Below are positions 862 through 25,266 of a DNA stretch of 64,000 bases, in pieces. Each line of letters begins with the position of its first letter. Positions within the stretch are counted from its first letter, which is position 1. The stretch is from Longimicrobiales bacterium (GTDB lineage Bacteria > Gemmatimonadota > Gemmatimonadetes > Longimicrobiales > Gaopeijiaceae), in contig CBDFIQ010000001.1 of NCBI GenBank assembly GCA_965248195.1, positions 1,088,001 to 1,152,000 of the forward strand, written 5' to 3'. Made by a program: the position numbers and the translations under genes. A model generated the notes under the pieces. The model was not told the origin of the DNA. It did no database searches and saw nothing but the letters and a program-made list of their open reading frames with translations.

Positions 862-1176
862 ATGAAAACAGTGTACCTATCCTTCGCGCTTCTCGGAGCC
901 ATTGTCCCCTACGTTTTCTTCATCGCCCACTTCCAGACCGAAGGCCTCGGGCTCGGAGCGTTTGTGAGCGCTCTCTTTGTCAATGGCGCTGCGGGGGGGT
1001 TCACCTCTGACATACTGATCTCGTCTGTCGTGTTCTGGGTCTGGCTGCTCCGCAGCGGTGCGCGACGGCCCTGGCTATACATCGTTCTCAACCTTGCGAT
1101 CGGGCTTTCCTGCGCCTTTCCCGCCTACTTGTACTCCAGGGAGCGGGAGGCCAGGGCGGCTGGGGCGGCCATCTAA
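862..1176 (+). CDS. DUF2834-like small membrane protein (cassette gene)
   Basis: Hydrophobic ~104 aa with ANGAAGGFTSD-type and IGLSCAFPAYLY motifs; stop codon lies inside the attC inverse core ATCTAAC. Confidence 0.7.
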   Translation: MKTVYLSFALLGAIVPYVFFIAHFQTEGLGLGAFVSALFVNGAAGGFTSDILISSVVFWVWLLRSGARRPWLYIVLNLAIGLSCAFPAYLYSREREARAAGAAI

Positions 1177-1251
1177 CACGAGATTGCTGCTGTCGCGTGT
1201 GACATTAGGCCCGCGCGCTTCGCCTGCGGTCACCATTTTAGCCGCGCAGCA

Positions 1252-1578
1252 TCTATAAGGTGAAGGGAGTCAACAGGGCGTAGCCCTCCCTTACCCGTCC
1301 GGGGTCCCGGAGGGGTGGCTCGGTCCACTGGTCTGTAGCTCAAGGCCTGCGTGATCATCTTCCGTTTTTCATCCTTCAGTACCAACGTCGCGTCCGATCT
1401 TGGGTGAGTCTCCTCTCACGAGGAACTCAGGCATCTATTCAGGTTTCATCCCAGCGCGGGGATGTCCGAAGATCTGCTATGCGAGCGGGGGGCTCAATCA
1501 GAATCTGAGGGTCGTCGTGCGACATGCTGCGCGCGGAGCTCACCCCTGTCGTGGTACGGTCCATCATCGTGTGTCATC
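1252..1578 (-). ncRNA. putative bridge/seek RNA region of IS copy 1 (RNA ends unknown)
   Basis: Target-matching segments at 1499-1505 and 1473-1478; donor-matching segments at 1432-1438 and 1396-1401; each pair flanks a hairpin. Confidence 0.85.
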
Positions 1579-2616
1579 TCAGTTTGATCGAGCCACGGGT
1601 TCATCGTGCCAGACCTCACCCGTACGGAGCATCGCGTGCACAGCACGAGCGAGGCGCCGAGCGGTAGCGACCCGAGCGACCTGCCACCCGAGCCGTTGCC
1701 TGATCAGTTCGTACGACTGTGATAGCCAGCTGTCGGGCGCGTGAGTGACGTGGCTCACGACGGTCCGGACGAAGGTGCCCCTCAGCCAACGGTTGGCCCC
1801 GGCGGGGATCGATCCGTGGCGGATGGGCCGGAGCCCTGACTGTGAGGAGCGAGGGGCTAGACCGGCGTAGCTGACCAGGTGCCCCGGTGTACGAAATCGT
1901 TTGATGGGCAACGTCTCGGTGGCGATGAGCAATGCCCGATAGGAACCGACGCCCGGGATGGTCTCGAGCAGAGCTACAGCGGGGACCTTGCGGCCTACGT
2001 GCTCAACCCTGCGATCAAGCGTTTTGATCATCGGCACGATCTGGTCGATGAGTTCCCACTGCATGTCGATGAACAGACGCCGCTCGGCTCCGAGCAGCGG
2101 CCACGCCACGTCATGCACCCACTGGCGTCCATCCTGGGTGAGCAGACGCCCACGCTCCAGATGAAGCCCGACGTTGTGGATCTGGGCATGGATGCGGTTC
2201 ACCATGCGTGTGCGTTCGCGTACGAGTCGTGCCCGGTTGCGTAGCAGTACCGCCTGCTCCCGCTGCTCGACGCACTTCGGATGGACCTCGGGGATGAGGC
2301 CCGCGAGTCGCATACGCGCCAACAACTCGGCGTCGATGTCGTCACTCTTGTAGTTGGACTCGGCGATGACTCGGAGCCGCTTGGCGTGAGCGAGCACGAA
2401 GTCGATCCCCCGCTCTTGGAGTCGATCGAAGAGCCACGGCCAGGCCGGACTCGTCTCGACGACCACCTCCAGGGGCTGATACTGCTCCAGTAGATCATTG
2501 AGCCGATCCTCTTGCGTGTTCTTGATCCGGATGGGTCCGGCAACGAGCTGACCTGTGTTGCTCACGATGGCGATCACCGAATACGTTGCGTGAGCATCGA
2601 TTCCTGCGACAAACAT
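1579..2616 (-). CDS. IS110-family DEDD recombinase/transposase
   Basis: GIDAH, VVVET and KSDDIDA RuvC-like acidic residues; IPGVG; SYAGLAP..SQSG serine motif. Confidence 0.95.
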   Translation of the reverse strand: MFVAGIDAHATYSVIAIVSNTGQLVAGPIRIKNTQEDRLNDLLEQYQPLEVVVETSPAWPWLFDRLQERGIDFVLAHAKRLRVIAESNYKSDDIDAELLARMRLAGLIPEVHPKCVEQREQAVLLRNRARLVRERTRMVNRIHAQIHNVGLHLERGRLLTQDGRQWVHDVAWPLLGAERRLFIDMQWELIDQIVPMIKTLDRRVEHVGRKVPAVALLETIPGVGSYRALLIATETLPIKRFRTPGHLVSYAGLAPRSSQSGLRPIRHGSIPAGANRWLRGTFVRTVVSHVTHAPDSWLSQSYELIRQRLGWQVARVATARRLARAVHAMLRTGEVWHDEPVARSN

Positions 2617-2811
2617 GGCTGGCCTCCTTGGGTTGGGTGCCGCAGGCCTTTGAGCAAGATCAGCGTAACGCCACGCTCGAGTGAGGTCAGCCTTTCGCCT
2701 TATAAGATCAGAATCGCAGAGACGTTATACGGACCTGCGCTGTGGCGCCTCGTCGAGTGACCCAACCCACAAGAATTGGACCGAGAAGAGTCCAATCATG
2801 AGGAGAGAGAA

Positions 2812-3099
2812 GTGAAGAAGTTTGTGCTGCTCCACTACGGATTCGAGAAGCCCACCCCAGAGATCATGAAGGCATGGGGCACCTGGTTCGAGTCAATCGC
2901 CGACAGGACGGTTGATCAAGGTGGTTTCAGCGGCGGGCGAGAGATCTCCGCATCTGGAACAAAGGACCTCCCAATGGGAATGGAGTCCATCACTGGCTAC
3001 AATATTATCGAAGCCGAGAGCCTCGATGAGGCAGAGAAGATCGCTCACGGCAATCCCTATATCGCGAGCATCCGCGTCTACGAGATCAGAGGGATGTAA
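2812..3099 (+). CDS. YCII/YciI-related protein (cassette gene)
   Basis: GAGGAG then GTG; ITGYNIIEAESLDEA..IA..P.....IRVYEI motif. Confidence 0.8.
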   Translation: MKKFVLLHYGFEKPTPEIMKAWGTWFESIADRTVDQGGFSGGREISASGTKDLPMGMESITGYNIIEAESLDEAEKIAHGNPYIASIRVYEIRGM

Positions 3100-3148
3100 C
3101 GTGCCTGACTCACAAGGAGGCATCTGAACTCGTGGGATTCGCGATAGA

Positions 3149-3817
3149 GTGAACGTCGTCTTGTTTGGTGCCACCGGAATGGTCGGGGCCGGGGTCCTGA
3201 TCGAGTGTCTGGACGATTCCAGAGTCGAATCGGTCCTCGCGGTGGGGCGGAGGCCATGCGCTGTCGCGCACCCGAAGGTCCGCGAGCTCATTCGCTCAGA
3301 TCTGTTCGAATACGGGGATGCGACCGACGACTTTCTGAACCTCGACGCTTGCTTCTTCTGTCTCGGGGCCTCCGCCCTGGGCATGAGCGAGGCGGCCTAC
3401 CGAAGGGTGACCTACGACCTGACAGTCGCTGCCGCTGAGTCGCTCCTCGAAGTGAATCCTGGACTTACGTTCTGCTACGTCTCAGGAGAAGGGACCGACA
3501 GCAGCGAACGGGGGCGCCTCATGTGGGCACGGGTCAAGGGCAAGACGGAGAATCAGCTTCTAGGAATGCCGTTCAAGGCCTACATGTTTCGGCCAGGGTA
3601 CATTCAGCCGCTGCGAGGTGTGCACCACAGGACGCGTGTGTACCGGGTGCTCCACACCGTGCTCAGGCCTTTCTACCCTCTGCTTGAACGGCTGCTGCCG
3701 GCGCACGTGACGACGACTGTCAATGTCGGTCGGGCCATGATCGAAGTGGCGGCGCGGGGACACACGAATCTCGTGCTGGAGAACTCTGACATCAACTCTC
3801 TGGCGGTCGCTGTCTAA
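3149..3817 (+). CDS. NAD(P)-binding epimerase-like protein (cassette gene)
   Basis: GATGMVG Rossmann motif, DACFFCLG, WARVKGKTEN; stop codon within attC R''. Confidence 0.85.
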   Translation: MNVVLFGATGMVGAGVLIECLDDSRVESVLAVGRRPCAVAHPKVRELIRSDLFEYGDATDDFLNLDACFFCLGASALGMSEAAYRRVTYDLTVAAAESLLEVNPGLTFCYVSGEGTDSSERGRLMWARVKGKTENQLLGMPFKAYMFRPGYIQPLRGVHHRTRVYRVLHTVLRPFYPLLERLLPAHVTTTVNVGRAMIEVAARGHTNLVLENSDINSLAVAV

Positions 3818-3912
3818 CAAGCGATTGCTACTGTCGTGTGTGACATCAGGCTCGCGCGCTTCGCTCGCGGTCGGCACATTGGACGCGCAGTAGAATGGCA
3901 GATCCGTTAGGC
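3812..3912 (+). other. attC: attC site, uninterrupted
   Basis: GTCTAAC...GTTAGGC with paired inner arms ATT[G]CTACTG / CAGTAGAAT and one extra base. Confidence 0.9.
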
Positions 3913-4030
3913 AGCAAGACTCCGGGCCGGAGTGCGGAGACCTCAGGGAGGACGAACTCGTGAGCCAAGCACTTCCAGCGGTACCCAAGACGGAACCTGT
4001 CAACGACAATGGGACACTCTACGGGATTAA

Positions 4031-5038
4031 TTAGAGAGCAATATCCTGTGTGGTGAGGGAAGGGATGGGAGGATTGATGTAGACGGCCTCCGGGAGCGGT
4101 TTGGGCTTCGGCACACCTGTGACGAAGCGTTCGGGATGAGCGGCCCATGCTTCGCGGAGCACGGATTTCCTGCCGGCAATGACCTGATCGGCGTTCCCGA
4201 AGTGGACCTGCTCGGGGGTTAGCATCGAGATACCGCCATGGCGGTGCTCGGCATTGTACCAGCGGAAGAACGATCGACACAACGTCTTGGCCTGGCCCTG
4301 ATCCCCGAACCGCCCGGGAAACGAGGGATGGTACTTCAAGGTTTTGAACTGAGCCTCGGAAAACGGGTTGTCATCCGACACCTGAGGCCGGCTCAACGAG
4401 CGAGTCACGCCGAGGTCAGCGAGAAGTTGAGCGGTGCATTGGCTCGTCATTGGAGCTCCCCGATCCGAGTGCAGGGTCAGGACCCGGGGCTGGACGCCAT
4501 GCTTCAGGCAGCTCTGCTGGATCAACCGGCCGGCCAGGGCCGAGTTCTCCCGGTCCGCCACCATCCAGCCCACGACGTAGCGGCTGTAGATGTCCATGAT
4601 GACGTAGAGGTAGTAATAGCTCCACTTCTTCGGCCCGAGTAGCCGCGTGATATCCCAGGACCACACCTGGTTCGGCGCCGTGGCCATCAACTCGGGCTTC
4701 TTGTACTCGGGATGGGTGCGCTGCGCCCGGCGTTCCTGAACCGGCACCTCGGAGGCCAGAACACGATACATCGTGCGTTCGCTGCACAGGTAGACCTCTT
4801 CGTCGAGCAGCGTGGCCACCACCTCGGCGGGTGAGCGGTCCACGAACCGCTCCGAACACAGCGTGTCGAAGACCTCGCCTCGTTCCGTCTCGCTCAATGC
4901 CCGGGCGGGCGTCGGGCGGGGCTGCCGTTGCCCGGTCGATGGGCCTCGACGACGGTAGAACGTCGATCGGGAGACCTCGAGAGCCGCGCACGCCGGTTTT
5001 ACACCGACGTGCTTAGCCAGCTCATCGGCCGCCTTCAA
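4031..5038 (-). CDS. IS3-family transposase OrfB (DDE)
   Basis: WSWDIT, LHSDRG, DNPFSEAQFKTLK. Confidence 0.93.
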   Translation of the reverse strand: MKAADELAKHVGVKPACAALEVSRSTFYRRRGPSTGQRQPRPTPARALSETERGEVFDTLCSERFVDRSPAEVVATLLDEEVYLCSERTMYRVLASEVPVQERRAQRTHPEYKKPELMATAPNQVWSWDITRLLGPKKWSYYYLYVIMDIYSRYVVGWMVADRENSALAGRLIQQSCLKHGVQPRVLTLHSDRGAPMTSQCTAQLLADLGVTRSLSRPQVSDDNPFSEAQFKTLKYHPSFPGRFGDQGQAKTLCRSFFRWYNAEHRHGGISMLTPEQVHFGNADQVIAGRKSVLREAWAAHPERFVTGVPKPKPLPEAVYINPPIPSLTTQDIAL

Positions 5039-5484
5039 GAGTTCGTCCCGTCGTCGAGGCTTATCCCCAGCAGCCCCGCAACTTTTCCCTGCACGTCGAT
5101 GATCAGGTGTGCCTTCCTGAGCTCATTCTCGAGCCGTGCGTTTTGCCGCTCCAGCTTGCGTACCTTCTCATCCAGCGGATTCCGCTCCGGCTTGCGGCCG
5201 CGTTTCTTCGACAGGGCCTTCAGCGACCCGCTATGCGCCGCCTTGCGCCACGTCGTCAGGTGCGACGAGTACAGGCCCTCGCGCCGCAGGAGCTGACCCA
5301 CCTCGCCGGGCTCGGTGCACCGGTCCGCTTCTTCGACGATCCGCAGCTTGTACGATGGACTGAACCGCCGGCGTAGCGGCCTATCTACTACCTCCGGGTC
5401 CGCAGGAGCTGCCGCGCTTCGCTTGGCCTCCCCGATTCCAGGGGCACTACCATTCTCTTCCATTCTCTCTCGCAGTCCCAACAT
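5035..5484 (-). CDS. IS3-family transposase OrfA (HTH)
   Basis: RRRFSPSYKLRI..LLRREGLYSSHL..WR followed by a coiled coil; 4-nt overlap with orfB. Confidence 0.9.
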   Translation of the reverse strand: MLGLRERMEENGSAPGIGEAKRSAAAPADPEVVDRPLRRRFSPSYKLRIVEEADRCTEPGEVGQLLRREGLYSSHLTTWRKAAHSGSLKALSKKRGRKPERNPLDEKVRKLERQNARLENELRKAHLIIDVQGKVAGLLGISLDDGTNS

Positions 5485-5557
5485 GTTCGTTTTCTCTGCC
5501 TTCGCCCTACTCTAATTCTTTGCGTGCTCCGTGTCTCACGTACGTTGGCAGAGAGGG

Positions 5558-5768
5558 AGACGGCACGGTCCCTATCCAGCCCGGTCACCCGATACCCCGC
5601 CCTCGCCAGGCGTACTGCGTGCCGACCGGCACCGCAGCATAAGTCCAAGACCCGTGGAAACCGCGACACAGGAAGCCAACGCACCAGGAAGGCGGCCTCT
5701 GCGTCAGAATGGCTCTTCGGAACCGACCGGAGAAAGGTTTCGAACCAGGTGCTGGAATAATCATTCAT
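5558..5768 (-). pseudogene. class I SAM methyltransferase N-terminal fragment, interrupted by IS3, antisense to the array
   Basis: RVLDLCCGAGRH and VTGLD motifs, then the IS end; no convincing C-terminal half on the other side. Confidence 0.7.
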
Positions 5769-5815
5769 TCGGGGAGTAGTGCGGTGGAGACGGTGGGTTG
5801 GGCAACCCCCCCGCG

Positions 5816-5915
5816 GCCTAAGACGTGCTCGGTACTGTCGCGATAGTGGGGGGGTCGCGCGCTTCGCTTGCGGAACCCATGTTAGGCGCGTAACAGAAGC
5901 ACAGAGACGTTAGGC
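5816..5915 (+). other. attC: attC site, degenerate
   Basis: R'' GCCTAAG (AAC to AAG); TACTGTCGCG arm; CAGAGACGTTAGGC end shared with the other sites. Confidence 0.75.
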
Positions 5916-5938
5916 GGCTCAAAAGGAGGTGCGGCATC

Positions 5939-7342: not shown

Positions 7343-7374
7343 GGACTGGCTCACTTTCCCGCTACGCACGACAC

Positions 7375-7484
7375 GACCAACACCGGTTCGAATCGCTACC
7401 GAGAGATTCTGGTGGAGTTGAAATGAATCGTCTTGGACAGACAGAGATGGCTGACAGCACAGCGGAATCGCAGAGACGTTAGAC
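7375..7484 (+). other. attC: partial/degenerate attC
   Basis: Right half CAGCGGAATCGCAGAGACGTTAGAC is clear; left half uncertain (GACCAAC at 7375). Confidence 0.55.
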
Positions 7485-7500
7485 GGCGCAACTTGCGGAT

Positions 7501-8223
7501 ATGGCGAAACCCTTCCTGACAGCTCGATGGGAGAGTCTGGTTCTCCTGAACTTCGAATGCCCAAGGGAGATCCTCGAGCCTCTCGTGCCGAGGGGCACCG
7601 AGCTCGACCCTTGGCGTGACGTCGACCTCATCAGTCTCGTCGGCTTCCGCTTCGTCGACACCAGAGTCAGGGGGGTCCCGATTCCGTGTCACCGCACCTT
7701 CGAAGAGGTCAACCTCCGATTCTACGTCCGTCGTCGAAATACCGACGGGTCGTTCCGCCGAGCGGTGGTCTTCATCAAGGAGCTCGTTCCTCGCCGCACG
7801 ATTGCGGCGCTCGCTCGGCTCATCTACAACGAACCCTACAGCATGGTTGCAATGGCACACGACGTCTCCCTAGACAAGAATTCTGGCGGACGCGTTGCAT
7901 ATTCCTGGGTGCACGGCGGACTTGCGTATGGTCTCCAGGCCAGGGTCGCTGGAGCGGCAACACCTCTCGTCCCCGGCTCCGAGGCAGAATTCATCACAGA
8001 ACACTATTGGGGCTATACCAAGCAGCGCGGCGGCGGCACCTCGGAATACCGCGTGGATCATCCAAGTTGGCTTGTTTGGGATGCCCTGGAGTCGAGTTAC
8101 GAGAGTCCCCCGACCGAGACCCTTTACGGCCCGAAGTTCAGCGAGGTTCTTGGAGCGGAGCCCAAGTCGGCCTTCGTTGCGGTGGGAAGCGAAGTGAGTA
8201 TGTTTTCCTCGGTCACGGTGTGA
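7501..8223 (+). CDS. DUF2071/YqjF-family protein (cassette gene)
   Basis: FLTARW, FEEVNLRFYV, AEFITEHYWGY; the stop TGA is supplied by the IS481 end and no attC follows. Confidence 0.85.
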   Translation: MAKPFLTARWESLVLLNFECPREILEPLVPRGTELDPWRDVDLISLVGFRFVDTRVRGVPIPCHRTFEEVNLRFYVRRRNTDGSFRRAVVFIKELVPRRTIAALARLIYNEPYSMVAMAHDVSLDKNSGGRVAYSWVHGGLAYGLQARVAGAATPLVPGSEAEFITEHYWGYTKQRGGGTSEYRVDHPSWLVWDALESSYESPPTETLYGPKFSEVLGAEPKSAFVAVGSEVSMFSSVTV

Positions 8224-8848
8224 GCCCGAACCCTGATGGGTAACAAAAACTGAACCTTGATGGGTTACAGTTTTGGGTTACGAGAAGAGGAGCCATTGTG
8301 GTCGAGGATGGCACCTTTTCTTATGTGCAGCCAGCCGAGCGAGACGGGGCCAAAGTAGACGGCCCAGATGTCGTGGTCGATCTCTTCGAGACCGATGTAG
8401 TCTCCACCGAGCAGGTGAGAGACGTTGATCCAGACGGAGTGCCATCGGATACCTCCGTTTGTTGAGACTTTGCGGACTTCGAAGTGAGCAGGGTAGTCGG
8501 GTGTGCTCAGCTTCGTCGGGAACGAGCGGGTGGAGGGTTGATATGCGGAAGCAGGCGGCTTCTGGCCTAGGGCTTCGTGAGGACGGATCTGGTTGAAGTC
8601 GGTGCGGAAGAAGTTGAAGCGCTTCTGCTGGGCGGAACGGTTTCCGGCAGGCGGGATGGTGGCCTCGGCCTTGAGGTCTTTGTGCATGCGTTCGTGACGG
8701 CCGTTCTGTTGGGGTGAGGCGGGCTCGATGAGGTCGGGCAGGATACCGAGCTTGATCCACCAGACGGAGAGTCGGGAGAGGCGGCCGAGAGCAATGGAAG
8801 CGAAGGGTGTCCCGTTGTCGGTGCGGATGCGCTGGGGCAGGCCGAACT
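8221..8848 (-). mobile_element. IS481-family 3' remnant A
   Basis: FGLPQRIRTDNGTPF...QQNGRHERMHKDLK integrase core; terminal repeated TA(A)CCCATCA motifs; cut by IS256. Confidence 0.8.
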
Positions 8849-10224
8849 GGTAGTGTCCCTAGATTTGTGTAAAAGCGGATAAGCTGGACAGGAGGGAAAG
8901 AAAAACGGAAGCTCCTCTGTTGTTGTTCACTGTCACATGAACCCGGGAGTCCGGGTCTGCAGAGCAGGCTCGGAACCGGAGAGGAGCTTCCGATGCAAGA
9001 GATTGTGGAGATCGGTCGGGCCACGCAAGACGAGCTACGCGATGATTTGCGCGAGCTGTTTCAAGGCGCGATCCGGCTGACGCTCGAGATGGTGCTGGAA
9101 GAGGAGCTGAAGGCCATGGTAGGTGCACGCCGCTTCGAGCGGGTGGGAAGCCGGAAGGACCATAGGAACGGCACATACCTGAGGCGGCTGCTGACGAGCC
9201 TGGGGCAGATCGAGGTCGCCATGCCCCGGAGCCGGGACAACGGTTCGCCGGCCGACGTGATCGGCCGCTACCAGCGCAGGAGCCCCGAGCTCGACGAGAT
9301 GATGGTCGAGGCGTATGTGAGCGGCGTGTCACAGCGCAAGATGGGCGACGTCACCGAGGCGCTGATGGGCGAGCGTGTTGGGCGCTCGACGGTGAGTCGT
9401 GTGGCAAAACGGCTCGACGAGGCCGTGGAAGGGCTGCGCCGTGCGCCGATCGAGGGGCCTCACCCCTATCTGTACCTGGACGCCACGTTCTTGGACGCCC
9501 GCTGGGCCCGCAAAGTCGAGAACGTGAGTGCGCTCGTGGCGTATGCAGTGGGCCCTGAGGGTCACCGACGGCTCCTGGCCGTCACGCTGGGCGCTGAGGA
9601 GTCGCAGCAGAGCTGGTCGGAGCTCCTCGAGCAACTCCAGGACCGCGGCCTCGGCGGTGTCGAGCTCGTGATCGCCGATGAGCACGCAGGCCTGGCAGCT
9701 GCGGTCCGCCGCTTCCTGCCCGAGGCACGCCGTCAGAGGTGTACGGTCCATCTGCAGCGTAATGTGGGGGCGAGGGTCCCCCACCGCCTACGCAAGCGCG
9801 TGGCGCGTGAGGTCTCGGTGATCTTCCAGACATCCGGACTCGCCGAGGCGAAGAAGCTCCTGGGCGAGTTCGGCGCACGCTGGAAGAAGGAGCTGCCCGA
9901 GGCCGTGGAGGTCCTGGAGCGGGGCTTCGGGGCAGCGACGCAGTTCTACGCGTTCCCCGAGGCGCACTGGCCCCGGCTGCGTACCACCAACAGCCTCGAG
10001 CGGCTGCACGGCGAGATCAAACGCAGGATCAAGGCCGCCGGCGCCTTCCCGGACCGGGCCAGCGCCCTCAGGCTCATCACGGCCGTCGCACTCAGGACCA
10101 CACACGTCTGGGGCGACCGGCGTTACCTCGACCTCTCACTCCTCCAGAAACAGGAGGTCGCCCAAGCAGCCTAGCCGAAGGCGAGGAGCTTCCTCCGCTT
10201 TTACACACAAATCGGGACTTGACC
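8849..10224 (+). mobile_element. IS256-family element, copy 1, 1376 bp
   Basis: IRs GGTAGTGTCCC..TGTAAAAGCGGA / GGTCAAGTCCC..TGTAAAAGCGGA; flanks do not form a duplication. Confidence 0.93.
8993..10174 (+). CDS. IS256-family (Mutator) transposase
   Basis: YLYLDA, VIADEH, QRCTVH, LRTTNSLERL. Confidence 0.95.
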   Translation: MQEIVEIGRATQDELRDDLRELFQGAIRLTLEMVLEEELKAMVGARRFERVGSRKDHRNGTYLRRLLTSLGQIEVAMPRSRDNGSPADVIGRYQRRSPELDEMMVEAYVSGVSQRKMGDVTEALMGERVGRSTVSRVAKRLDEAVEGLRRAPIEGPHPYLYLDATFLDARWARKVENVSALVAYAVGPEGHRRLLAVTLGAEESQQSWSELLEQLQDRGLGGVELVIADEHAGLAAAVRRFLPEARRQRCTVHLQRNVGARVPHRLRKRVAREVSVIFQTSGLAEAKKLLGEFGARWKKELPEAVEVLERGFGAATQFYAFPEAHWPRLRTTNSLERLHGEIKRRIKAAGAFPDRASALRLITAVALRTTHVWGDRRYLDLSLLQKQEVAQAA

Positions 10225-10692
10225 CATGCACAAAGACCTCAAGGCCGAGGCCACCATCCCGCCTGCCGGAAACCGTTCCGCCCAGCAGAAGCGCTTCAAC
10301 TTCTTCCGCACCGACTTCAACCAGATCCGTCCTCACGAAGCCCTAGGCCAGAAGCCGCCTGCTTCCGCATATCAACCCTCCACCCGCTCGTTCCCGACGA
10401 AGCTGAGCACACCCGACTACCCTGCTCACTTCGAAGTCCGCAAAGTCTCAACAAACGGAGGTATCCGATGGCACTCCGTCTGGATCAACGTCTCTCACCT
10501 GCTCGGTGGAGACTACATCGGTCTCGAAGAGATCGACCACGACATCTGGGCCGTCTACTTTGGCCCCGTCTCGCTCGGCTGGCTGCACATAAGAAAAGGT
10601 GCCATCCTCGACCACAATGGCTCCTCTTCTCGTAACCCAAAACTGTAACCCATCAAGGTTCAGTTTTTGTTACCCATCAGGGTTCGGGCTCA
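10225..10692 (+). mobile_element. IS481-family 3' remnant B
   Basis: Reverse complement of 8221-8688. Confidence 0.8.
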
Positions 10693-10880
10693 TTCACATA
10701 CGTCGCCGCGGCCAGCCCAAGACCACGCCTTCCACGAAGACGCGGAGCCCAGGGGATGGCATCGGCTGGATCATTGTCGAGGGCGTGGCCGCAAGAAGGC
10801 TTCCGAGGTGTGGGAGGATCGGTGTCCTGCGACCCCGTCAGCTGCATCTTCCGGCCTCAGGGGACGTGCACTACGTCGCC

Positions 10881-12086: not shown

Positions 12087-12234
12087 GTGCCTCCTCGAAA
12101 CAAGTGCTCGGTGAAAGGCCATCCAGGCCGACTGCGGCCCGAGGGCTGCGTTCAGGCGGGTGATTGGGTCGGTCATCAGCGCAACATAGCCCGAGGCCTC
12201 AGGTTGTGCCCCCCGCCGCCTGAATACGAGGGCC

Positions 12235-12335
12235 ATCTAACGGATATGCGATTCTGCTGCGCGTCCAACATGCCCTCCGCGTGCGTAGCGCGCGACCCTC
12301 ACGCTTCACGTGACAGTAGCAATCGCTTGTTAGAT
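12235..12335 (-). other. attC: attC site, uninterrupted
   Basis: Reverse complement of the same attC family; cores at 12235-12241 and 12329-12335. Confidence 0.9.
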
Positions 12336-12971
12336 TGCACCCCCGTCGAACGCGATGCGCCAACGCTCTCCAGGGTCGTCAAACTGAACCTCGGCCACAG
12401 AAAAGACCGTTGGGTCGATCGGCCCACCGGTCCACTCCATCATTTCTTTGTGCTCAGGATGTCCCGGGTCAGACAGGGCAGCAAGCAGGTTCGCATAGCC
12501 GTGGGACCCGCCGCAGTCCTCGGGAGGACATGCCCCGGCCCCCCCGACGCATTCGGGCCCGGTGCTTAGGCTGCCGGCCTGCTCAAAGCCCTCAAGGATC
12601 ACTGCATGGTCCCAATTGTCGCCGAAGTCGTAGGTGTATTGGATCGGTGGTGGGTCGCCCGCCGTAAAGTCGAACGGAAACTCCGTCCAGTCGGCCGTGA
12701 CCGAAAGATCGTTCGGCACGTCCGGATCTGGGATTCCGAGCATCATTGCGGTGCCCGAGCCCGGATCGAGAACGCGGAATGTATGGAGGTGGTAGTCGAG
12801 CCATCCCATTGCGTCTTGGATCGCGACGTGGAGATCCCAAAAGGAATAGGTCGCGGGAACCTGAATTCACCGCCAAACAAGCGGGTTAGTCCCGACCAGA
12901 ACTACGAGGTATTGGAGCATCAAGCCTGGAGGAACCGGCGCGTCCCTCGGTTGACCCTGCGTCGACATCAT
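12330..12971 (-). pseudogene. pRiA4b ORF-3 family protein with an internal TGA (cassette gene)
   Basis: PLVWR*IQVP..SFWDLHVAIQDAMGWLDYHLH, YTYDFGDNWDH, GACPPEDCGG; stop at 12867-12869. Confidence 0.8.
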
Positions 12972-13113
12972 CACCCTGCTCGGAGCATGATCAGGTGCAA
13001 TCTAACGTCTCTGCGATTCTGATCTTATAAGGCGAAAGGCTGACCTCACTCGAGCGTGGCGTTACGCTGATCTTGCTCAAAGGCCTGCGGCACCCAACCC
13101 AAGGAGGCCAGCC

Positions 13114-14151
13114 ATGTTTGTCGCAGGAATCGATGCTCACGCAACGTATTCGGTGATCGCCATCGTGAGCAATACAGGTCAGCTCGTGGCCGGACCCATC
13201 CGGATCAAGAACACACAAGAGGATCGACTCGATGATCTACTTCAGCAGTATCAGCCCCTGGAGGTGGTCGTCGAGACGAGTCCGGCCTGGCCGTGGCTCT
13301 TCGATCGACTCCAAGAGCGGGGGATCGACTTCGTGCTCGCTCACGCCAAGCGGCTCCGAGTCATTGCCGAGTCCAACTACAAGAGTGACGACATCGACGC
13401 CGAGTTGTTGGCGCGTATGCGGCTCGCGGGCCTCATCCCCGAGGTCCATCCGAAGTGCGTCGAGCAGCGGGAGCAGGCGGTACTGCTACGCAACCGGGCG
13501 AGACTCGTACGCGAACGGACGCGCATGGTGAACCGCATCCACTCCCAACTCCACAACGTTGGGCTTCACCTGGAGCGTGGGCGTCTGCTCACCCAGGACG
13601 GACGTCAGTGGGTGCGTACCGAGGCATGGCCCCTGCTCGGAGACGAGCGGCGTCTGTTCATCGACATGCAGTGGGAACTCATCGACCAGATCGTACCGAT
13701 GATCAAAACCCTCGATCGCAGAGTGGAACACGTGGGCCGCGAGATCCCGGCTGTGGCCCTGCTCGAGACCGTCCCGGGCATCGGTCCCTACCGGGCATTG
13801 CTCATCGCCACCGAGACGTTGCCCATCAAACGATTTCGTACACCGGGGCACCTGGTCAGCTACGCCGGTCTAGCCCCTCGCTCCTCACAGTCAGGGCTCC
13901 GGCCCATCCGCCACGGATCGATCCCCGCCGGGGCCAACCGTTGGCTGAGGGGCACCTTCGTCCGGACCGTCGTGAGCCACGTCACTCACGCGCCCGACAG
14001 CTGGCTATCACAGTCGTACGAACTGATCAGGCAACGGCTCGGGTGGCAGGTCGCTCGGGTCGCTACCGCTCGGCGCCTCGCTCGTGCTGTGCACGCGATG
14101 CTCCGTACGGGTGAGGTCTGGCACGATGAACCCGTGGCTCGATCAAACTGA
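13114..14151 (+). CDS. IS110-family recombinase (variant allele)
   Basis: Near-identical to 1579-2616; AAGGAGG RBS. Confidence 0.95.
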   Translation: MFVAGIDAHATYSVIAIVSNTGQLVAGPIRIKNTQEDRLDDLLQQYQPLEVVVETSPAWPWLFDRLQERGIDFVLAHAKRLRVIAESNYKSDDIDAELLARMRLAGLIPEVHPKCVEQREQAVLLRNRARLVRERTRMVNRIHSQLHNVGLHLERGRLLTQDGRQWVRTEAWPLLGDERRLFIDMQWELIDQIVPMIKTLDRRVEHVGREIPAVALLETVPGIGPYRALLIATETLPIKRFRTPGHLVSYAGLAPRSSQSGLRPIRHGSIPAGANRWLRGTFVRTVVSHVTHAPDSWLSQSYELIRQRLGWQVARVATARRLARAVHAMLRTGEVWHDEPVARSN

Positions 14152-14422
14152 GATGACACACGATGATGGACCGTACCACGACAGGGGTGAGCTCCGTGCG
14201 CAGCATGTCGCACGACGACCCTCAGATTCTGATTGAGCCCCCCGCTCGCATAGCAGATCTTCGGACATCCCCGCGCTGGGATGAAACCTGAATAGATGCC
14301 TGAGTTCCTCGTGAGAGGAGACTCACCCAAGATCGGACGCGACGTTGGTACTGAAGGATGAAAAACGGAAGATGATCACGCAGGCCTTGAGCTACAGACC
14401 AGTGGACCGAGCCACCCCTCCG
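14152..14422 (+). ncRNA. putative bridge/seek RNA region of IS copy 2
   Basis: GATTCTG 14225-14231 and AGCAGA 14252-14257 match the target; ATAGATG 14292-14298 and AAGATC 14329-14334 match the donor junction. Confidence 0.85.
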
Positions 14423-15327
14423 CCCTCTCTGCCAACGTACGTGAGACACGGAGCACGCAAAGAATTAGAGTAGGGCGAAGGCAGAGAAAACGAACATGTT
14501 GGGACTGCGAGAGAGAATGGAAGAGAATGGTAGTGCCCCTGGAATCGGGGAGGCCAAGCGAAGCGCGGCAGCTCCTGCGGACCCGGAGGTAGTAGATAGG
14601 CCGCTACGCCGGCGGTTCAGTCCATCGTACAAGCTGCGGATCGTCGAAGAAGCGGACCGGTGCACCGAGCCCGGCGAGGTGGGTCAGCTCCTGCGGCGCG
14701 AGGGCCTGTACTCGTCGCACCTGACGACGTGGCGCAAGGCGGCGCATAGCGGGTCGCTGAAGGCCCTGTCGAAGAAACGCGGCCGCAAGCCGGAGCGGAA
14801 TCCGCTGGATGAGAAGGTACGCAAGCTGGAGCGGCAAAACGCACGGCTCGAGAATGAGCTCAGGAAGGCACACCTGATCATCGACGTGCAGGGAAAAGTT
14901 GCGGGGCTGCTGGGGATAAGCCTCGACGACGGGACGAACTCTTGAAGGCGGCCGATGAGCTGGCTAAGCACGTCGGTGTAAAACCGGCGTGCGCGGCTCT
15001 CGAGGTCTCCCGATCGACGTTCTACCGTCGTCGAGGCCCATCGACCGGGCAACGGCAGCCCCGCCCGACGCCCGCCCGGGCATTGAGCGAGACGGAACGA
15101 GGCGAGGTTACCTGATCGGCGTTCCCGAAGTGGACACATTGCCGGCAGGAAATCCGTGCTCCGCGAAGCATGGGCCGCTCATCCCGAACGCTTCGTCACA
15201 GGTGTGCCGAAGCCCAAACCGCTCCCGGAGGCCGTCTACATCAATCCTCCCATCCCTTCCCTCACCACACAGGATATTGCTCTCTAATTAATCCCGTAGA
15301 GTGTCCCATTGTCGTTGACAGGTTCCG
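14423..15327 (+). mobile_element. IS3-family element, copy 2, internally deleted (905 bp)
   Basis: Both ends present; CCG/CCG duplication; orfB DDE core missing. Confidence 0.9.
14496..14945 (+). CDS. IS3-family OrfA
   Basis: Identical protein to 5035-5484. Confidence 0.9.
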   Translation: MLGLRERMEENGSAPGIGEAKRSAAAPADPEVVDRPLRRRFSPSYKLRIVEEADRCTEPGEVGQLLRREGLYSSHLTTWRKAAHSGSLKALSKKRGRKPERNPLDEKVRKLERQNARLENELRKAHLIIDVQGKVAGLLGISLDDGTNS

Positions 15328-15489
15328 CCGGGACCCCGGACGGGTAAGGGAGGGCTACGCCCTGTTGACTCCCTTCACCTTATAGATGCTGCGCGGCTAA
15401 TGTGGTGACCGCAAGCGAAGCGCGCGAGCCTAATGGCTACCGCGACAGTAGCAATCGCTTGTTAGATGGCGCGGACGCTCGGAAAGACC

Positions 15490-16197
15490 TCACTCGCCAG
15501 CGGGTCTAGACTCCGCAATCAGCCTAAGGATCGTCGCAGCCTCATCGAGTAGCCGCTGCCCACCCTGCACTAGGTCCTGCTGTATCCACACTCGACTCGT
15601 CACCACGTCCGCGAAATCCGAGGCAGCCAAGCGTCGCAGATCGACCCTATACTCCACGGGAGGGACCGCAATACCCTCATATTCGGGATAGAGGCCTGTG
15701 AGGGCCCGCGCTTCGATCATCAACGGTTCCTCGAAGCCGATCCAATGGTCCCAAGCCCATTGTGAGACATTGCCCTGGACCGCGACCTGGCTTTCGAACC
15801 GGGCAAGAGCCACGCGGAGACTGTCACTGCGCAGAAGCCGGATGTCGCCGGAGTTGACCATGTCGTGGTATGTAGCGAGAACGGGTCGGAAATGTTCGAT
15901 ACGAAACGCGTCTTCCAGAAGTAACCTGACACTCTCTCTTGAGGCGCTGGCATAGTCGGTGTCGAGGAGGCCGAGGTTGGCATCTCGTATCCGGGCGGCC
16001 GTTTCAACGTGCGCGGTCAACTCGCGCTGGTTTTCAAAGAAATCCTGTTCAAGCGCCTCGAGGTACTGGATTTCCTCTGCAACCTCACGCCGCGCATCCG
16101 TGGCCGAGTCGGCCCACAATGCGAGAGCTGCGCCGATCAAGAGGAGCCCTACCTCGGCTACAGCTTGGCGCCAGTTGATTCGATCGGTGAGGGCCAG
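15490..16197 (-). CDS. membrane-anchored helical protein, DUF6090-like (cassette gene)
   Basis: Frame open to 16200; INWRQAVAEVGLLLIGAALALWAD; GGAG before CTG at 16197; YHDMVNSGDIRLL; start uncertain. Confidence 0.6.
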   Translation of the reverse strand: MALTDRINWRQAVAEVGLLLIGAALALWADSATDARREVAEEIQYLEALEQDFFENQRELTAHVETAARIRDANLGLLDTDYASASRESVRLLLEDAFRIEHFRPVLATYHDMVNSGDIRLLRSDSLRVALARFESQVAVQGNVSQWAWDHWIGFEEPLMIEARALTGLYPEYEGIAVPPVEYRVDLRRLAASDFADVVTSRVWIQQDLVQGGQRLLDEAATILRLIAESRPAGE

Positions 16198-16227
16198 GAT
16201 TCACTCCAGCACGAGGAACTGAGCGCC

Positions 16228-16325
16228 ATCTAACGTCTCGTGTTTCTGCCGCGCGTCAATCTGCACTGCGCGCGCGTAGTGCGCGACCCTCCCGGTATCG
16301 CGACAGTAGCAAACACTTGTTAGAG
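16228..16325 (-). other. attC: attC site, uninterrupted
   Basis: Cores at 16228-16234 and 16319-16325; CGCGACAGTAGCAA arm shared with the other sites. Confidence 0.88.
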
Positions 16326-16338
16326 AGCCCGGAAGCCG

Positions 16339-16356
16339 GTAGCATTGAGGTGCTAC
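16339..16356. promoter_or_regulatory. palindromic operator upstream of the TA operon
   Basis: GTAGCA-N6-TGCTAC, 14 nt before the antitoxin ATG. Confidence 0.5.
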
Positions 16357-16370
16357 TTCGGAGGAATACC

Positions 16371-16598
16371 ATGGTTCGAAGTGTGAAATTGCGCAGAATG
16401 GGGGGATCTGTCGGGGCCACCCTGCCCAAGGAGATGGCGGAGCGCCTCCACCTTGAGGCGGGAGACGAAGTGCTTGCCGTTGAGACGGCAGACGGGATTC
16501 TGCTTAGCCCCTACAATCCAGAGGTAGAGGAGGGGCTCGCAATCGCGGCCGAGGCTCAGAAGCGGTACCAGGGGGCTCTTAGAGAACTCGCGAAGTGA
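16371..16598 (+). CDS. AbrB/MazE-family antitoxin
   Basis: KLRRMGGSVGATLPKE..L.LEAGD; GGAGG RBS; GTGA overlap with the toxin. Confidence 0.9.
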   Translation: MVRSVKLRRMGGSVGATLPKEMAERLHLEAGDEVLAVETADGILLSPYNPEVEEGLAIAAEAQKRYQGALRELAK

Positions 16599-16999
16599 CT
16601 CAGCCGGAGCCCCGGTGGGTTCCCCGGCTTGTCATTGAGGCCGTCCATCTCGACCAGATTCGCGAACACGGCGGCCTGATAGGCATCCGCGACGAGAATG
16701 CCCTGGAGTCAGCCCTAGCCCGGGCAAGGCAGAGATGGACGTATGAGCCGGAGTCGGACCTGGCACGGCTCGCCGCCGACTACGCTTTCGGAATTTGCTC
16801 CAGTCACCCCTTCCGAGACGGAAACAAGCGGATCTCGTTTTTAGCCGCCGTCATCTTTCTTGGCCTCAACGGACTCGACTTCATCGCCCCCGAAGACGAA
16901 GTGGTTGATAGATTGCTGGCCTTGGCTTCCGGAAACCTCGATGAGGAAGCACTAGCCGCGTGGATTCGCTCACGAATCCAACCTCAGTCAGGTGTCTGA
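16595..16999 (+). CDS. doc: Doc/Fic-family toxin
   Basis: HPFRDGNKRIS motif; GIRDENALESALAR. Confidence 0.9.
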   Translation: MTQPEPRWVPRLVIEAVHLDQIREHGGLIGIRDENALESALARARQRWTYEPESDLARLAADYAFGICSSHPFRDGNKRISFLAAVIFLGLNGLDFIAPEDEVVDRLLALASGNLDEEALAAWIRSRIQPQSGV

Positions 17000-17025
17000 A
17001 GAGGGCTCTCTAACGTCTCTGCGAT

Positions 17026-18401
17026 GGTCAAGTCCCGATTTGTGTGTAAAAGCGGAGGAAGCTCCTCGCCTTCGGCTAGGCTGCTTGGGCGACCTCCTGT
17101 TTCTGGAGGAGTGAGAGGTCGAGGTAACGCCGGTCGCCCCAGACGTGTGTGGTCCTGAGTGCGACGGCCGTGATGAGCCTGAGGGCGCTGGCCCGGTCCG
17201 GGAAGGCGCCGGCGGCCTTGATCCTGCGTTTGATCTCGCCGTGCAGCCGCTCGAGGCTGTTGGTGGTACGCAGCCGGGGCCAGTGCGCCTCGGGGAACGC
17301 GTAGAACTGCGTCGCTGCCCCGAAGCCCCGCTCCAGGACCTCCACGGCCTCGGGCAGCTCCTTCTTCCAGCGTGCGCCGAACTCGCCCAGGAGCTTCTTC
17401 GCCTCGGCGAGTCCGGATGTCTGGAAGATCACCGAGACCTCACGCGCCACGCGCTTGCGTAGGCGGTGGGGGACCCTCGCCCCCACATTACGCTGCAGAT
17501 GGACCGTACACCTCTGACGGCGTGCCTCGGGCAGGAAGCGGCGGACCGCAGCTGCCAGGCCTGCGTGCTCATCGGCGATCACGAGCTCGACACCGCCGAG
17601 GCCGCGGTCCTGGAGTTGCTCGAGGAGCTCCGACCAGCTCTGCTGCGACTCCTCAGCGCCCAGCGTGACGGCCAGGAGCCGTCGGTGACCCTCAGGGCCC
17701 ACTGCATACGCCACGAGCGCACTCACGTTCTCGACTTTGCGGGCCCAGCGGGCGTCCAAGAACGTGGCGTCCAGGTACAGATAGGGGTGAGGCCCCTCGA
17801 TCGGCGCACGGCGCAGCCCTTCCACGGCCTCGTCGAGCCGTTTTGCCACACGACTCACCGTCGAGCGCCCAACACGCTCGCCCATCAGCGCCTCGGTGAC
17901 GTCGCCCATCTTGCGCTGTGACACGCCGCTCACATACGCCTCGACCATCATCTCGTCGAGCTCGGGGCTCCTGCGCTGGTAGCGGCCGATCACGTCGGCC
18001 GGCGAACCGTTGTCCCGGCTCCGGGGCATGGCGACCTCGATCTGCCCCAGGCTCGTCAGCAGCCGCCTCAGGTATGTGCCGTTCCTATGGTCCTTCCGGC
18101 TTCCCACCCGCTCGAAGCGGCGTGCACCTACCATGGCCTTCAGCTCCTCTTCCAGCACCATCTCGAGCGTCAGCCGGATCGCGCCTTGAAACAGCTCGCG
18201 CAAATCATCGCGTAGCTCGTCTTGCGTGGCCCGACCGATCTCCACAATCTCTTGCATCGGAAGCTCCTCTCCGGTTCCGAGCCTGCTCTGCAGACCCGGA
18301 CTCCCGGGTTCATGTGACAGTGAACAACAACAGAGGAGCTTCCGTTTTTCTTTCCCTCCTGTCCAGCTTATCCGCTTTTACACAAATCTAGGGACACTAC
18401 C
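17026..18401 (-). mobile_element. IS256-family element, copy 2
   Basis: 9-bp duplication CTCTGCGAT (17017-17025, 18402-18410). Confidence 0.95.
17076..18257 (-). CDS. IS256-family transposase
   Basis: Identical to 8993-10174. Confidence 0.95.
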   Translation of the reverse strand: MQEIVEIGRATQDELRDDLRELFQGAIRLTLEMVLEEELKAMVGARRFERVGSRKDHRNGTYLRRLLTSLGQIEVAMPRSRDNGSPADVIGRYQRRSPELDEMMVEAYVSGVSQRKMGDVTEALMGERVGRSTVSRVAKRLDEAVEGLRRAPIEGPHPYLYLDATFLDARWARKVENVSALVAYAVGPEGHRRLLAVTLGAEESQQSWSELLEQLQDRGLGGVELVIADEHAGLAAAVRRFLPEARRQRCTVHLQRNVGARVPHRLRKRVAREVSVIFQTSGLAEAKKLLGEFGARWKKELPEAVEVLERGFGAATQFYAFPEAHWPRLRTTNSLERLHGEIKRRIKAAGAFPDRASALRLITAVALRTTHVWGDRRYLDLSLLQKQEVAQAA

Positions 18402-18414
18402 CTCTGCGATTCTG

Positions 18415-20951: not shown

Positions 20952-21010
20952 TCCTGAACCGGGGTGGCTTGGGCATACGTAGCCCCTTGGACACCATCTG
21001 GGAGCCGTAG
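20952..21010 (+). pseudogene. intI: displaced C-terminal tail of the integron integrase
   Basis: Encodes LNRGGLGIRSPLDTIWEP*, the typical IntI ending; joins 24711 through the 9-bp duplication. Confidence 0.88.
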
Positions 21011-24710: not shown

Positions 24711-25266
24711 GGTTCAGGACGTGGGTGTAGATCATGGTGGTCTTCACGCTTCGGTGTCCAAGTAGCTCCTGGATGGTGCGTATGTCGTAGCCATCCTCGA
24801 GTAGGTGAGTGGCGAAGGAATGCCGGAGGGTGTGGCAGGTGACTCGCTTGGTGAGCCCGAGAACCCGGACCGCGGTTTTCAGAGCTCGTTGCACGGACGT
24901 GGGGTGGAGGTGAAATCTGCCCCGAGCTCCGGTGAGCGGGTCCGCGGTGAAGGTCGAGGCGGCAAAGAGGAACTGCCAACCCAACTCGACGCCCGACCTC
25001 GGTGATTTCGTCGCATACATCCCCGGCAGCACCGCCCAGCCGAAGCCAGCCGCGAGGTCCTTTTCGTGGATGGCGCGGCGCCGTTCGATCTGCTCCTTTA
25101 GTGGGCCGACCAGCACCGCGGGAACCACAGAGACCCGCTCCCTGCCACCTTTCGCCCCCCGGACCCTCAGCTCTCGACCATCGAGATCCAGGTCCTTCAC
25201 CCTCAGTTGGAGTCCCTCTTTCAGTCGGAGACCCGAGCCGTAAAGCACGTGCCCAGCTAAAGGGCG
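24711..25266 (-). pseudogene. intI: integron integrase catalytic domain; N-terminus missing, C-terminus split off
   Basis: LYGSGLR, HTLRHSFATHLL, LLGH..TTMIYTH, plus the IntI-specific insertion (HEKDLAAGFG..LP....K.P.....GWQFLF). Confidence 0.92.

What the first reader, a model, noticed from the sequence alone, without database searches (positions are those of the whole stretch)
1171..18414. Three independent insertions at the identical base of three different attC sites
All copies are inserted at GCGATTC-TG, within the L' arm of attC (cores at 2709-2710, 13020-13021, 18413-18414). All are antiparallel to the cassette array, and only the 2-bp core appears at both junctions. The flanking cassettes differ, so these are separate events rather than a duplication. 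Inference: splitting L' should block attC folding and lock neighbouring cassettes together, while precise excision would restore the site, acting as a reversible lock on cassette mobility.
Basis: partly seen in the sequence, partly recalled or inferred. Interest (0 to 1): 0.8.

Follow-up and report, generated by a model that had tools for sequence, protein, structure and literature searches.

The report
RNA-guided transposon invading integron attC sites
A jumping gene uses its own small guide RNA to land at one exact base of this bacterium's integron recombination sites; this is a known kind of element, seen here in a separate lineage, and nothing shows that it works as a reversible lock.

Summary
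The three junctions are real and at the stated coordinates. They belong to one 1,459-bp IS1111-type element (IS110 family), inserted antiparallel at the TG core in the L' box of three different attC sites. Copy 3 has lost its right end, so the two-junction claim holds for 2 of 3 copies. Genome-wide, 12 of 13 left junctions lie at this attC base. A bridge/seek RNA in the right end explains the targeting: its guides spell the target and covary with relatives' targets (0 of 5,000 permutations as high). attC targeting, antisense orientation and the idea that insertion immobilises cassettes are all in print for IS1111-attC elements. What differs: this lineage does not group with ISPa21 (AU p 1.3e-5), hits the opposite arm, and relatives have shifted the guide by 3 nt or to the apex. 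Four other IS110 lineages hit the same attC family at other bases in sister genomes. The 'reversible lock' is not supported. No precise empty site or circle was seen in contigs, occupancy follows guide match (p 1.3e-5), copies are being destroyed by other IS, and the only IntI found is broken. The scan already reported this element at another locus of this genome.

The parts
1171..1251 (+). attC of the DUF2834 cassette, 5' part (R'' 1171-1177, L'' 1183-1190, up to the core at 1250-1251 in L')
   Evidence: sequence; attC profile hit from model position 21; fold
1252..2710 (-). IS copy 1, intact, 1,459 bp counting one TG core (2709-2710)
1579..2616 (-). IS110-family recombinase, 345 aa, with DEDD-type motifs and the GL-P----SG motif
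   Evidence: PF01548 and PF02371 above cut-off; motifs located
1390..1550 (-). Predicted bridge/seek RNA of copy 1: target-binding loop followed by a multi-branched donor-binding loop (ends approximate)
   Evidence: alignment A1 of 44 sequences: 95.6% of cells paired, 13 of 29 pairs with double changes, 0 of 500 shuffles as high
1525..1533 (-). Right-target guide (complement of core plus right flank)
   Evidence: covariation with targets; position
1499..1505 (-). Left-target guide (same sense as left flank plus core)
1432..1438 (-). Left-donor guide (matches the element's own right end plus core)
   Evidence: the variable base agrees in 74 of 75 loci
1254..1267 (-). Right sub-terminal inverted repeat (12 of 14 match to the left repeat at 2691-2704)
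   Evidence: the two repeats vary together across 64 loci
2691..2704 (-). Left sub-terminal inverted repeat
1268..1273 (-). -35-like hexamer that would form a junction promoter in the circle (inferred)
   Evidence: spacing to the junction identical in 64 of 64 loci with both ends
2711..2730 (+). attC of copy 1, 3' remainder (rest of L', spacer, R' 2724-2730)
13000..13019 (-). attC of copy 2, L' remainder and R' (array on the - strand)
13020..15386 (+). IS copy 2: both ends, recombinase gene (13114-14151) and RNA region (about 14180-14340) present, but interrupted; 45 differences from copy 1
14423..15328 (+). Internally deleted IS3-like element inside the right end of copy 2
   Evidence: repeats I9, I10, I12, I13; Pfam of the full copy at 3991-5557
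15387..15467 (-). attC of copy 2, core to R''
17008..17025 (-). R' box and spacer of the attC hit by copy 3
17026..18401 (-). IS256-family element inserted in that attC spacer (9-bp duplication 17017-17025 / 18402-18410)
18413..19575 (+). IS copy 3: left end and intact gene (18507-19544); right end and guide RNA missing; identical to copy 1 over 1,163 nt
19576..20951 (+). IS256-family element that truncates copy 3
12236..12337 (-). Empty attC with a perfect target (core at 12255-12256)
3810..3911 (+). Empty attC, target with 2 mismatches
5815..5914 (+). Empty attC, target with 3 mismatches
16229..16327 (-). Empty attC of the toxin-antitoxin cassette, target with 2 mismatches
24706..25248 (-). 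Integron-integrase fragment: N-terminal part absent, cut by IS256; its C-terminal tail lies inverted at 20954-21010
   Evidence: TIGR02249 238.7 bits, below the 265 cut-off

Best explanation
A selfish IS1111-type element whose recombinase is steered by an RNA encoded in its long right end. The RNA's target loop reads about 5 nt left of a TG core and about 7 nt right of it. That 14-nt word is the conserved L' arm of this host's attC family, so every insertion lands at the same base and in the same orientation. Shown here: the anatomy, the junctions, the guide-target covariation and the conserved RNA fold. Inferred from characterised relatives: the element forms a circle whose junction makes a promoter, and the recombinase-RNA complex joins the circle to a new target without duplicating more than the core. 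attC sites are a repeated, intergenic, low-cost landing place. Destroying the attC and fusing two cassettes is a side effect, mostly permanent, in an array that is decaying under several IS families.
For: Pfam and motifs. 12 of 13 left junctions and 10 of 11 right junctions in the genome lie at one attC base. Guides track targets across relatives: left guide 0.86 match against 0.40 permuted (42 distinct guides), right guide 0.88 against 0.37 (33 distinct guides), 0 of 5,000 permutations as high; donor guide base agrees in 74 of 75. Relatives at 88-90% identity with changed guides insert 3 nt further along the same attC (L034, L035, L037). The fold has compensatory changes. Occupancy follows guide match: perfect target 9 occupied and 2 empty; mismatched target 1 occupied and 21 empty; Fisher p 1.3e-5. 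Decay: 104 full IS256 and 50 full IS3-like copies; IntI broken. ISEc11 and CazIS110-1 are reported to leave no rejoined site or to copy out.
Against: No RNA expression, circle or transposition is shown for this element. A single-sequence fold of the RNA is unremarkable (z -1.59), and Rfam has no match. No right-donor guide was identified. Two perfect targets are empty, and 17 of 24 genomic words within one mismatch of the 12-mer are outside attC and unoccupied, so extra context may matter. Relatives are not independent samples even after collapsing to distinct guides.
Confidence: 0.8

Rival explanations
1. Reversible lock: the element cuts out precisely, restores attC and so switches cassette mobility on and off, in the manner of IS492 phase variation or IS621 excision.
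For: Only the core is repeated, so a reverse reaction would restore the site exactly. Rejoined sites fold as attC (-18.3 and -24.3 kcal/mol). Post-excision junctions were detected for IS621 at native loci (PMC13626964 section 5). Two perfect empty targets could be excision products. Seven copies are intact.
Against: No precise joint 1251 to 2711 and no circle joint were listed in contigs of 4 runs; the nearest joint carries a different base and has only 26 nt on its short side. The rejoined target was not detected for IS1111-type ISEc11. Excision is less efficient than insertion for IS621 (abstract). Copy 3 and three other fragments have one end only. No intact IntI was found in this 91.8%-complete genome, so there is currently nothing to lock. 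Occupancy is explained by guide match alone.
Confidence: 0.1
2. The element recognises the folded single-stranded attC hairpin (as group IIC-attC introns are thought to), not just a 14-nt word in double-stranded DNA.
For: All five IS110 lineages seen on this attC family insert in the bottom-strand orientation. One-mismatch words outside attC are not occupied.
Against: Close relatives in the same family target non-attC words with the same RNA scaffold. One diverged copy here (C2:1762335) sits at a CGATTC|TG word with no attC hit. A bridge RNA pairs with both strands, which already fixes orientation.
Confidence: 0.07
3. The three copies come from duplication or rearrangement of one insertion, not from separate events.
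For: Copies 1 and 3 are identical over 1,163 nt. The array flips orientation between 8.2 and 10.7 kb, and IS256-bounded rearrangements are evident.
Against: The three left flanks diverge immediately beyond R'. The cassette flanks of copies 1 and 2 are unique in the genome. Copy 2 differs at 45 positions. Recombination between copies swaps flanks but does not create new ones.
Confidence: 0.03

Closest known systems
IS1111-attC group: ISPa21, ISPst6, ISKpn4, ISPa25 (Tetu & Holmes 2008; Post & Hall 2009; neither was held, so known here through citing papers)
   Same: IS110-family recombinase, long right end, sub-terminal inverted repeats, insertion at one fixed base of attC, antisense to the array (PMC3001079 passages), seekRNA order with the top-strand match 5' of the bottom-strand match (PMC11187229). 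Cassette immobilisation was already proposed (PMC11616780).
   Different: They insert at the R''/L'' end (PMC13604230 Table 1; ISPa21 seen 6 nt after the R'' AAC in L155). This element inserts in L', 13 nt from R'. Its recombinase is 25% identical to ISPa21 over 252 aa, and a shared clade is rejected (p-AU 1.3e-5). The terminal repeats are unrelated in sequence.
Bridge RNA / seekRNA systems (IS621, ISEc11, ISPa11; PMC11208160, PMC11187229)
   Same: Two-loop RNA with guides for target and donor around a 2-nt core; right-end location and multi-loop donor part as described for IS1111 elements; natural redirection between close relatives as for ISEc11/ISXne4.
   Different: New scaffold with no Rfam match. 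Natural redirection here moves the site along one and the same attC (offsets 12-13 nt, 15-16 nt, and the apex).
ISHvo10 (Haloferax volcanii; listed among the more diverged IS1111-side elements in PMC11187229 section 6)
   Same: Best named protein match: 31% over 336 aa, E 2.6e-46 in a pairwise search; also among the top plasmid hits.
   Different: Distant; long branch, so no close kinship is shown. Its target was not examined.
Group IIC-attC introns
   Same: Unrelated mobile elements that also insert at a fixed attC position, antisense to the array.
   Different: Retro-element mechanism; no reverse transcriptase here.

Membership tests
IS110 family (broad) | DEDD (PF01548) plus PF02371 recombinase | tested here: met
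   both above curated cut-offs; motifs present in 3 of 3 copies
IS110 family (broad) | No target duplication beyond a short core | tested here: met
   10 of 10 two-ended copies show only TG at both junctions
IS110 family (broad) | Circular intermediate | tested here: inconclusive
   no circle joint listed in contigs of 4 runs; junction-promoter spacing constant in 64 of 64 loci
IS1111 type | Long non-coding region downstream of tnp, short left end | tested here: met
   94 nt left, 327 nt right
IS1111 type | Sub-terminal inverted repeats | tested here: met
   12 of 14 match; vary together in relatives. Leaving the outermost pair out gives 7 nt outside on the left (the length named) and 3 on the right (recalled rule)
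IS1111 type | 330-350 aa and a GL-P----S(t)G motif | tested here: met
   345 aa, GLAPRSSQSG (criterion)
IS1111 type | Recombinase in the tight IS1111 cluster | tested here: inconclusive
   falls outside the IS4321/ISPa21 clade; may be one of the diverged branches; only three named references were in the tree
IS1111-attC group | Inserted at a fixed position of attC, antisense | tested here: met
IS1111-attC group | Same position near the 5' (R''/L'') end as ISKpn4, ISPst6, ISPa21 | tested here: not met
   L' arm at the 3' end
IS1111-attC group | Monophyletic with ISPa21/ISPst6 | tested here: not met
   p-AU 1.3e-5 on 27 proteins; only ISPa21 stood for the group. ISKpn4 and ISPst6 proteins were not obtained; their right ends resemble ISPa21's
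Bridge/seek RNA system | Target guides that covary with insertion sites | tested here: met
Bridge/seek RNA system | Donor guides | tested here: inconclusive
   left-donor guide covaries (74 of 75); right-donor guide not identified
Bridge/seek RNA system | RNA is expressed and bound by the recombinase | not testable with these tools
   the one RNA run laid was contigs of relatives and shows nothing about ends or strand
attC site | R''/L''/L'/R' boxes, hairpin with an extrahelical base, cassette start complementary to its own R'' | tested here: met
   sequence and fold; the extra base in L'' is G on the top strand. The profile used was home-made from 8 sites of this genome
attC site | Recombined by IntI | not testable with these tools
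   no intact IntI found

The most novel reading that the evidence does not exclude
The attC family of this Gemmatimonadota genus is a shared niche divided base by base among at least five unrelated RNA-guided IS110 lineages (R' crossover, L' at two registers, L''-R'' spacer, two positions in R''), with guides that walk along the site by natural reprogramming. This lineage cuts out precisely, so intact copies act as a heritable, reversible switch that holds cassette pairs together until excision frees them. The division of the site is seen in the data; the reversible, useful switch is not excluded but has no support.
Probability: 0.12. Interest if true: 0.65.

Novelty: new variant of a known kind. 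Interest (0 to 1): 0.36.

Why it matters
It shows that attC targeting by RNA-guided IS110 elements has arisen more than once and at different positions of the site, beyond the known clinical IS1111-attC group. It gives a compact bridge-RNA scaffold with more than 30 natural guide settings, including pairs of about 90%-identical elements whose insertion point differs by 3 nt: a ready natural test set for guide rules. For integron biology it illustrates how a chromosomal cassette array can be frozen and eroded. The open question whether IS1111-type elements restore their site on excision could be tested with it, but no more easily than with ISKpn4.

Tried and rejected
Read evidence for excision or circles: 4 of 22 listed runs laid, all contigs. 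The joint 1251 to 2712 in X1 and X3 (one sample) has a C where the precise product needs a G and only 26 nt on its short side, so it is read as another member of the attC family, not a restored site. No circle joint was listed; some rows were not shown and contigs drop rare forms, so this is no evidence of absence. RNA run X17: contigs of relatives, uninformative.

First guess at the right-target guide (the stretch after the second stem, around 1472-1480): rejected, because it stays nearly constant while targets change.

Rfam search of 1-21000 at E 0.1: 0 matches. Single-sequence RNA fold: not better than shuffles (16 of 200 as good).

Duplication of copies d and g (identical attC interior): rejected, because their cassette genes differ on both sides.

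Three other tyrosine recombinases of the genome as stand-in integrases: they match TIGR02249 only outside positions 178-234 and lack the integron-specific insert seen in the window's fragment.

tblastn of plasmids: best hits about 33-34% identity, none of the 40 listed (of 511 records) named as an attC-group element.

Search for the empty DUF2834 cassette in 40 relatives: only attC matches and one distant gene match.

Literature: Tetu & Holmes 2008 and Post & Hall 2009 not held, so I cannot exclude that they describe further insertion positions such as that of ISUnCu1. Searches 'IS110 + attC site + bridge RNA' gave 0 papers; 'Gemmatimonad + attC + integron' gave 6 listings, none with an insertion-sequence title; 'IS110 + attC + chromosomal integron + insertion sequence' gave 3 listings. 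PMC5034289 and PMC4129628 passages gave nothing useful. Figures of PMC11187229 (target logos) could not be seen; 1 of its 6 supplements was searched.
Full report
OBSERVATION. Each reads GCGATTC|TG|ATCTTATAAGG on the strand opposite to the cassette genes, with the core at 2709-2710, 13020-13021 and 18413-18414. The array runs on the + strand from 1 to about 8.2 kb and on the - strand from 17.0 to 10.7 kb, and the element flips with it. For copy 1 the site is a full attC: R'' 1171-1177, a 5-nt spacer, L'' 1183-1190, and R' 2724-2730; the core is positions 5-6 of the L' box on the bottom strand. Cassette starts are complementary to their own R'' (for example the cassettes ending at 12337, 15467 and 16327), as expected of integrase-inserted cassettes. 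Copy 1 (1252-2710) is intact. Copy 2 has both ends but carries a deleted IS3-like element (14423-15328). Copy 3 stops 31 nt after its stop codon at an IS256 and has lost its right end and the R''/L'' half of the site; another IS256 sits in its L'-R' spacer. So 'core at both junctions' is seen in 2 of 3 copies.

INDEPENDENCE AND SPECIFICITY. The genome (4.86 Mb, 2 contigs, 91.8% complete) holds 14 copies or fragments: 7 intact, 3 interrupted but two-ended, 4 one-ended (two of the one-ended pieces may be remains of one copy). Twelve of 13 left junctions lie at this attC base. Ten of 11 right junctions begin a hit of a home-made attC profile at the same model position. The exceptions count against strict attC exclusivity. 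A diverged 231-nt stump (C2:1762335) sits at CGATTC|TG with no R' box or profile hit. One right end (C2:1909506) has the right-target word but no profile hit. Flanks of copies 1 and 2 are single-copy, and copy 2 differs from copy 1 at 45 positions while copy 3 is identical to it. Separate insertion events are the plain reading.

WHAT THE ELEMENT IS. The 345-aa protein carries PF01548 and PF02371 with the catalytic-type motifs in 3 of 3 copies. The left end is 94 nt, the right end 327 nt, and 14-nt sub-terminal repeats match at 12 positions: IS1111 architecture as defined in PMC11187229 (section 6). Records holding the closest relatives are mostly titled Gemmatimonadota or Longimicrobiales, so the host probably belongs there (inference).

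HOW IT FINDS THE SITE. I parsed the 122 loci, of 150 then held, that matched on the + strand at 45% identity or more. The right end holds a conserved scaffold with two variable stretches. In this element they read as the complement of core plus right flank (1525-1533) and as left flank plus core (1499-1505), in the order reported for IS1111 seekRNAs. Leaving the core out, the left guide matches the first 5 flank bases at 0.88 in 77 of 122 loci with both parts (0.86 for 42 distinct guides; permuted 0.40). The right guide matches the first 7 bases at 0.89 in 64 of 122 loci (0.88 for 33 distinct guides; permuted 0.37). None of 5,000 permutations reached either value; kinship inflates such tests, but the distinct-guide sets limit this. 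A third stretch matches the element's own right end, and its one variable base agrees in 74 of 75 loci. On 44 sequences the scaffold pairs in 95.6% of cells, 13 of 29 pairs show changes on both sides, and 0 of 500 shuffles and none of six slid controls come near. I drew that structure by eye from the alignment, but RNAalifold recovers most of it. A -35-like hexamer lies at one fixed distance from the junction in 64 of 64 two-ended loci, which suggests a circle-junction promoter (inference). Against: the single sequence folds no better than shuffles, no right-donor guide was found, and expression is not shown.

Occupancy agrees. Of 37 attC profile hits, 10 are occupied, 23 are empty and cover the target, and 4 partial hits were left out; one-ended copies were also left out. 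Perfect 13-mer targets are 9 occupied and 2 empty; mismatched targets are 1 occupied and 21 empty (Fisher p 1.3e-5). The element has nearly saturated the sites its guide fits, whatever the cassette. One perfect empty site lies in the window (12236-12337).

NATURAL REPROGRAMMING. Relatives at 88-90% identity (L034, L035, L037) insert 3 nt further along the same attC, with the right guide changed to fit in all three and the left guide too where it is held (L034). L127 and L129 (64%) use the same shifted site, L136 inserts at the apex of an attC, and many 55-75% relatives target words that are not attC. A rough screen found an R'-like box 10-16 nt from the core in 42 of 99 left junctions, clustering at 12-13 and 15-16 nt (the screen makes errors).

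THE LOCK. Insertion separates R' and part of L' from R''/L'' by 1.46 kb. The rejoined sites fold as attC hairpins, and R-box pairing falls from about 0.24 to about 0.016 with the element in place. Loss of attC function, and fusion of two cassettes for IntI, is a sound inference. It is not new: PMC11616780 proposes it for ISPa21 (abstract and passages). Reversibility is the unsupported part. For it: only the core is repeated, and IS621 leaves post-excision junctions at native loci (PMC13626964 section 5). Against it: ISEc11 gave circles but no rejoined target (PMC11187229 passages); CazIS110-1 copies out (bioRxiv 2025.10.25.684509, abstract); IS621 excises less well than it inserts (abstract). 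Contigs of 4 runs listed no precise empty joint and no circle (weak). Half of the copies are broken by other IS, in a genome with 104 full IS256 and 50 full IS3-like copies. The only integron-integrase match is the window's fragment at 24706-25248, below the family cut-off, without its N-terminal part and with its tail displaced to 20954-21010. The picture is saturation and decay, not regulation.

COMPARISON WITH WHAT IS KNOWN. It works like the IS1111-attC elements: fixed attC position, antisense (PMC3001079 passages), seekRNA-guided. It is not a member of that group. ISKpn4, ISPst6 and ISPa25 insert at the R''/L'' end (PMC13604230 Table 1), and I saw the same for ISPa21 in a plasmid record. 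ISPa21 is 25% identical over 252 aa and groups with IS4321; holding it with this family costs 87.7 log units (p-AU 1.3e-5, 27 proteins; long branches present, one group member tested). The two founding papers were not held, so further described positions cannot be excluded. Three searches found no paper on this lineage.

CONTEXT IN SISTER GENOMES. In six regions from four genomes of the same genus, chosen because IS110 genes lay beside attC hits, four other IS110-family lineages (25-33% identical to this one) sit in the same attC family, each at its own base and all in the bottom-strand orientation. One is at the R' AAC (9 of 9 left ends found), one at the edge of R'' (6 of 6), one inside R'' (3 of 3), and one ISPa21-like element (47% to ISPa21) at the classical position (1). 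In L174 two lineages occupy one attC about 13 nt apart. None of the four was found in the window's genome at E 1e-30. Repeated, convergent use of attC fits a safe-haven strategy better than a host-selected lock.

EARLIER SCAN NOTES. e1-7899395 and e1-7899402 describe this same element at another locus of this genome; e1-8066101 describes a lineage at the R' crossover in another genome. I had the guide model before seeing them.

VERDICT. Real, ordinary in kind, and a separate lineage at a different arm of attC. Observation partly confirmed; independence supported; inactivation plausible and already proposed; reversible lock unsupported. New variant of a known kind; interest 0.36.

Noticed in passing
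L170-L175 (G004, G005, G006, G011): Four further IS110-family lineages insert into the same attC family at four other fixed bases (R' AAC, edge of R'', inside R'', classical ISPa21 position); in L174 two lineages share one attC. Their guide RNAs were not analysed.
   Followed up: partly
L034, L035, L037, L127, L129, L136: Natural guide changes move the insertion 3 nt along L' or to the attC apex.
   Followed up: yes
window 20952-23334 and 24706-25248: The integron integrase gene is split by IS256 (9-bp duplication). The segment between the inverted IS256 copies at 19576-20951 and 23335-24710 appears flipped, and the integrase's N-terminal part was not found in the genome.
   Followed up: partly
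window 8221-10692: Two inverted 3' fragments of an IS481-like element around an IS256 mark the point where the cassette array changes strand.
   Followed up: no
window 1183-1190 and other attC sites: This attC family has G as the extra base in L'' on the top strand (C on the bottom strand) and a 9-nt L'-R' spacer; the usual extra base is recalled as G on the bottom strand.
   Followed up: no
G000:C1:487000-503000: A second cassette array with four copies of the element (c, d, e, f) at nearby attC sites.
   Followed up: partly
window 16317-16999: MazE-type antitoxin plus Fic/Doc toxin cassette oriented against the array.
   Followed up: no
L138:3538-3970: A relative's right end is followed directly by a second copy of its own RNA region, as if it had inserted into a guide-RNA gene at the left-guide word.
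   Followed up: no
L130, L131: Relatives whose two junction cores differ (TG left, AG right) at a perfect palindromic target.
   Followed up: no
G000 copies at C1:489609, C1:1101020, C2:833207, C2:1143763: Patches of shared differences among copies suggest recombination or gene conversion between two variants of the element.
   Followed up: no
L061-L096 (several): A large subfamily targets CCTC|TG|CG-type short repeats, not attC.
   Followed up: no
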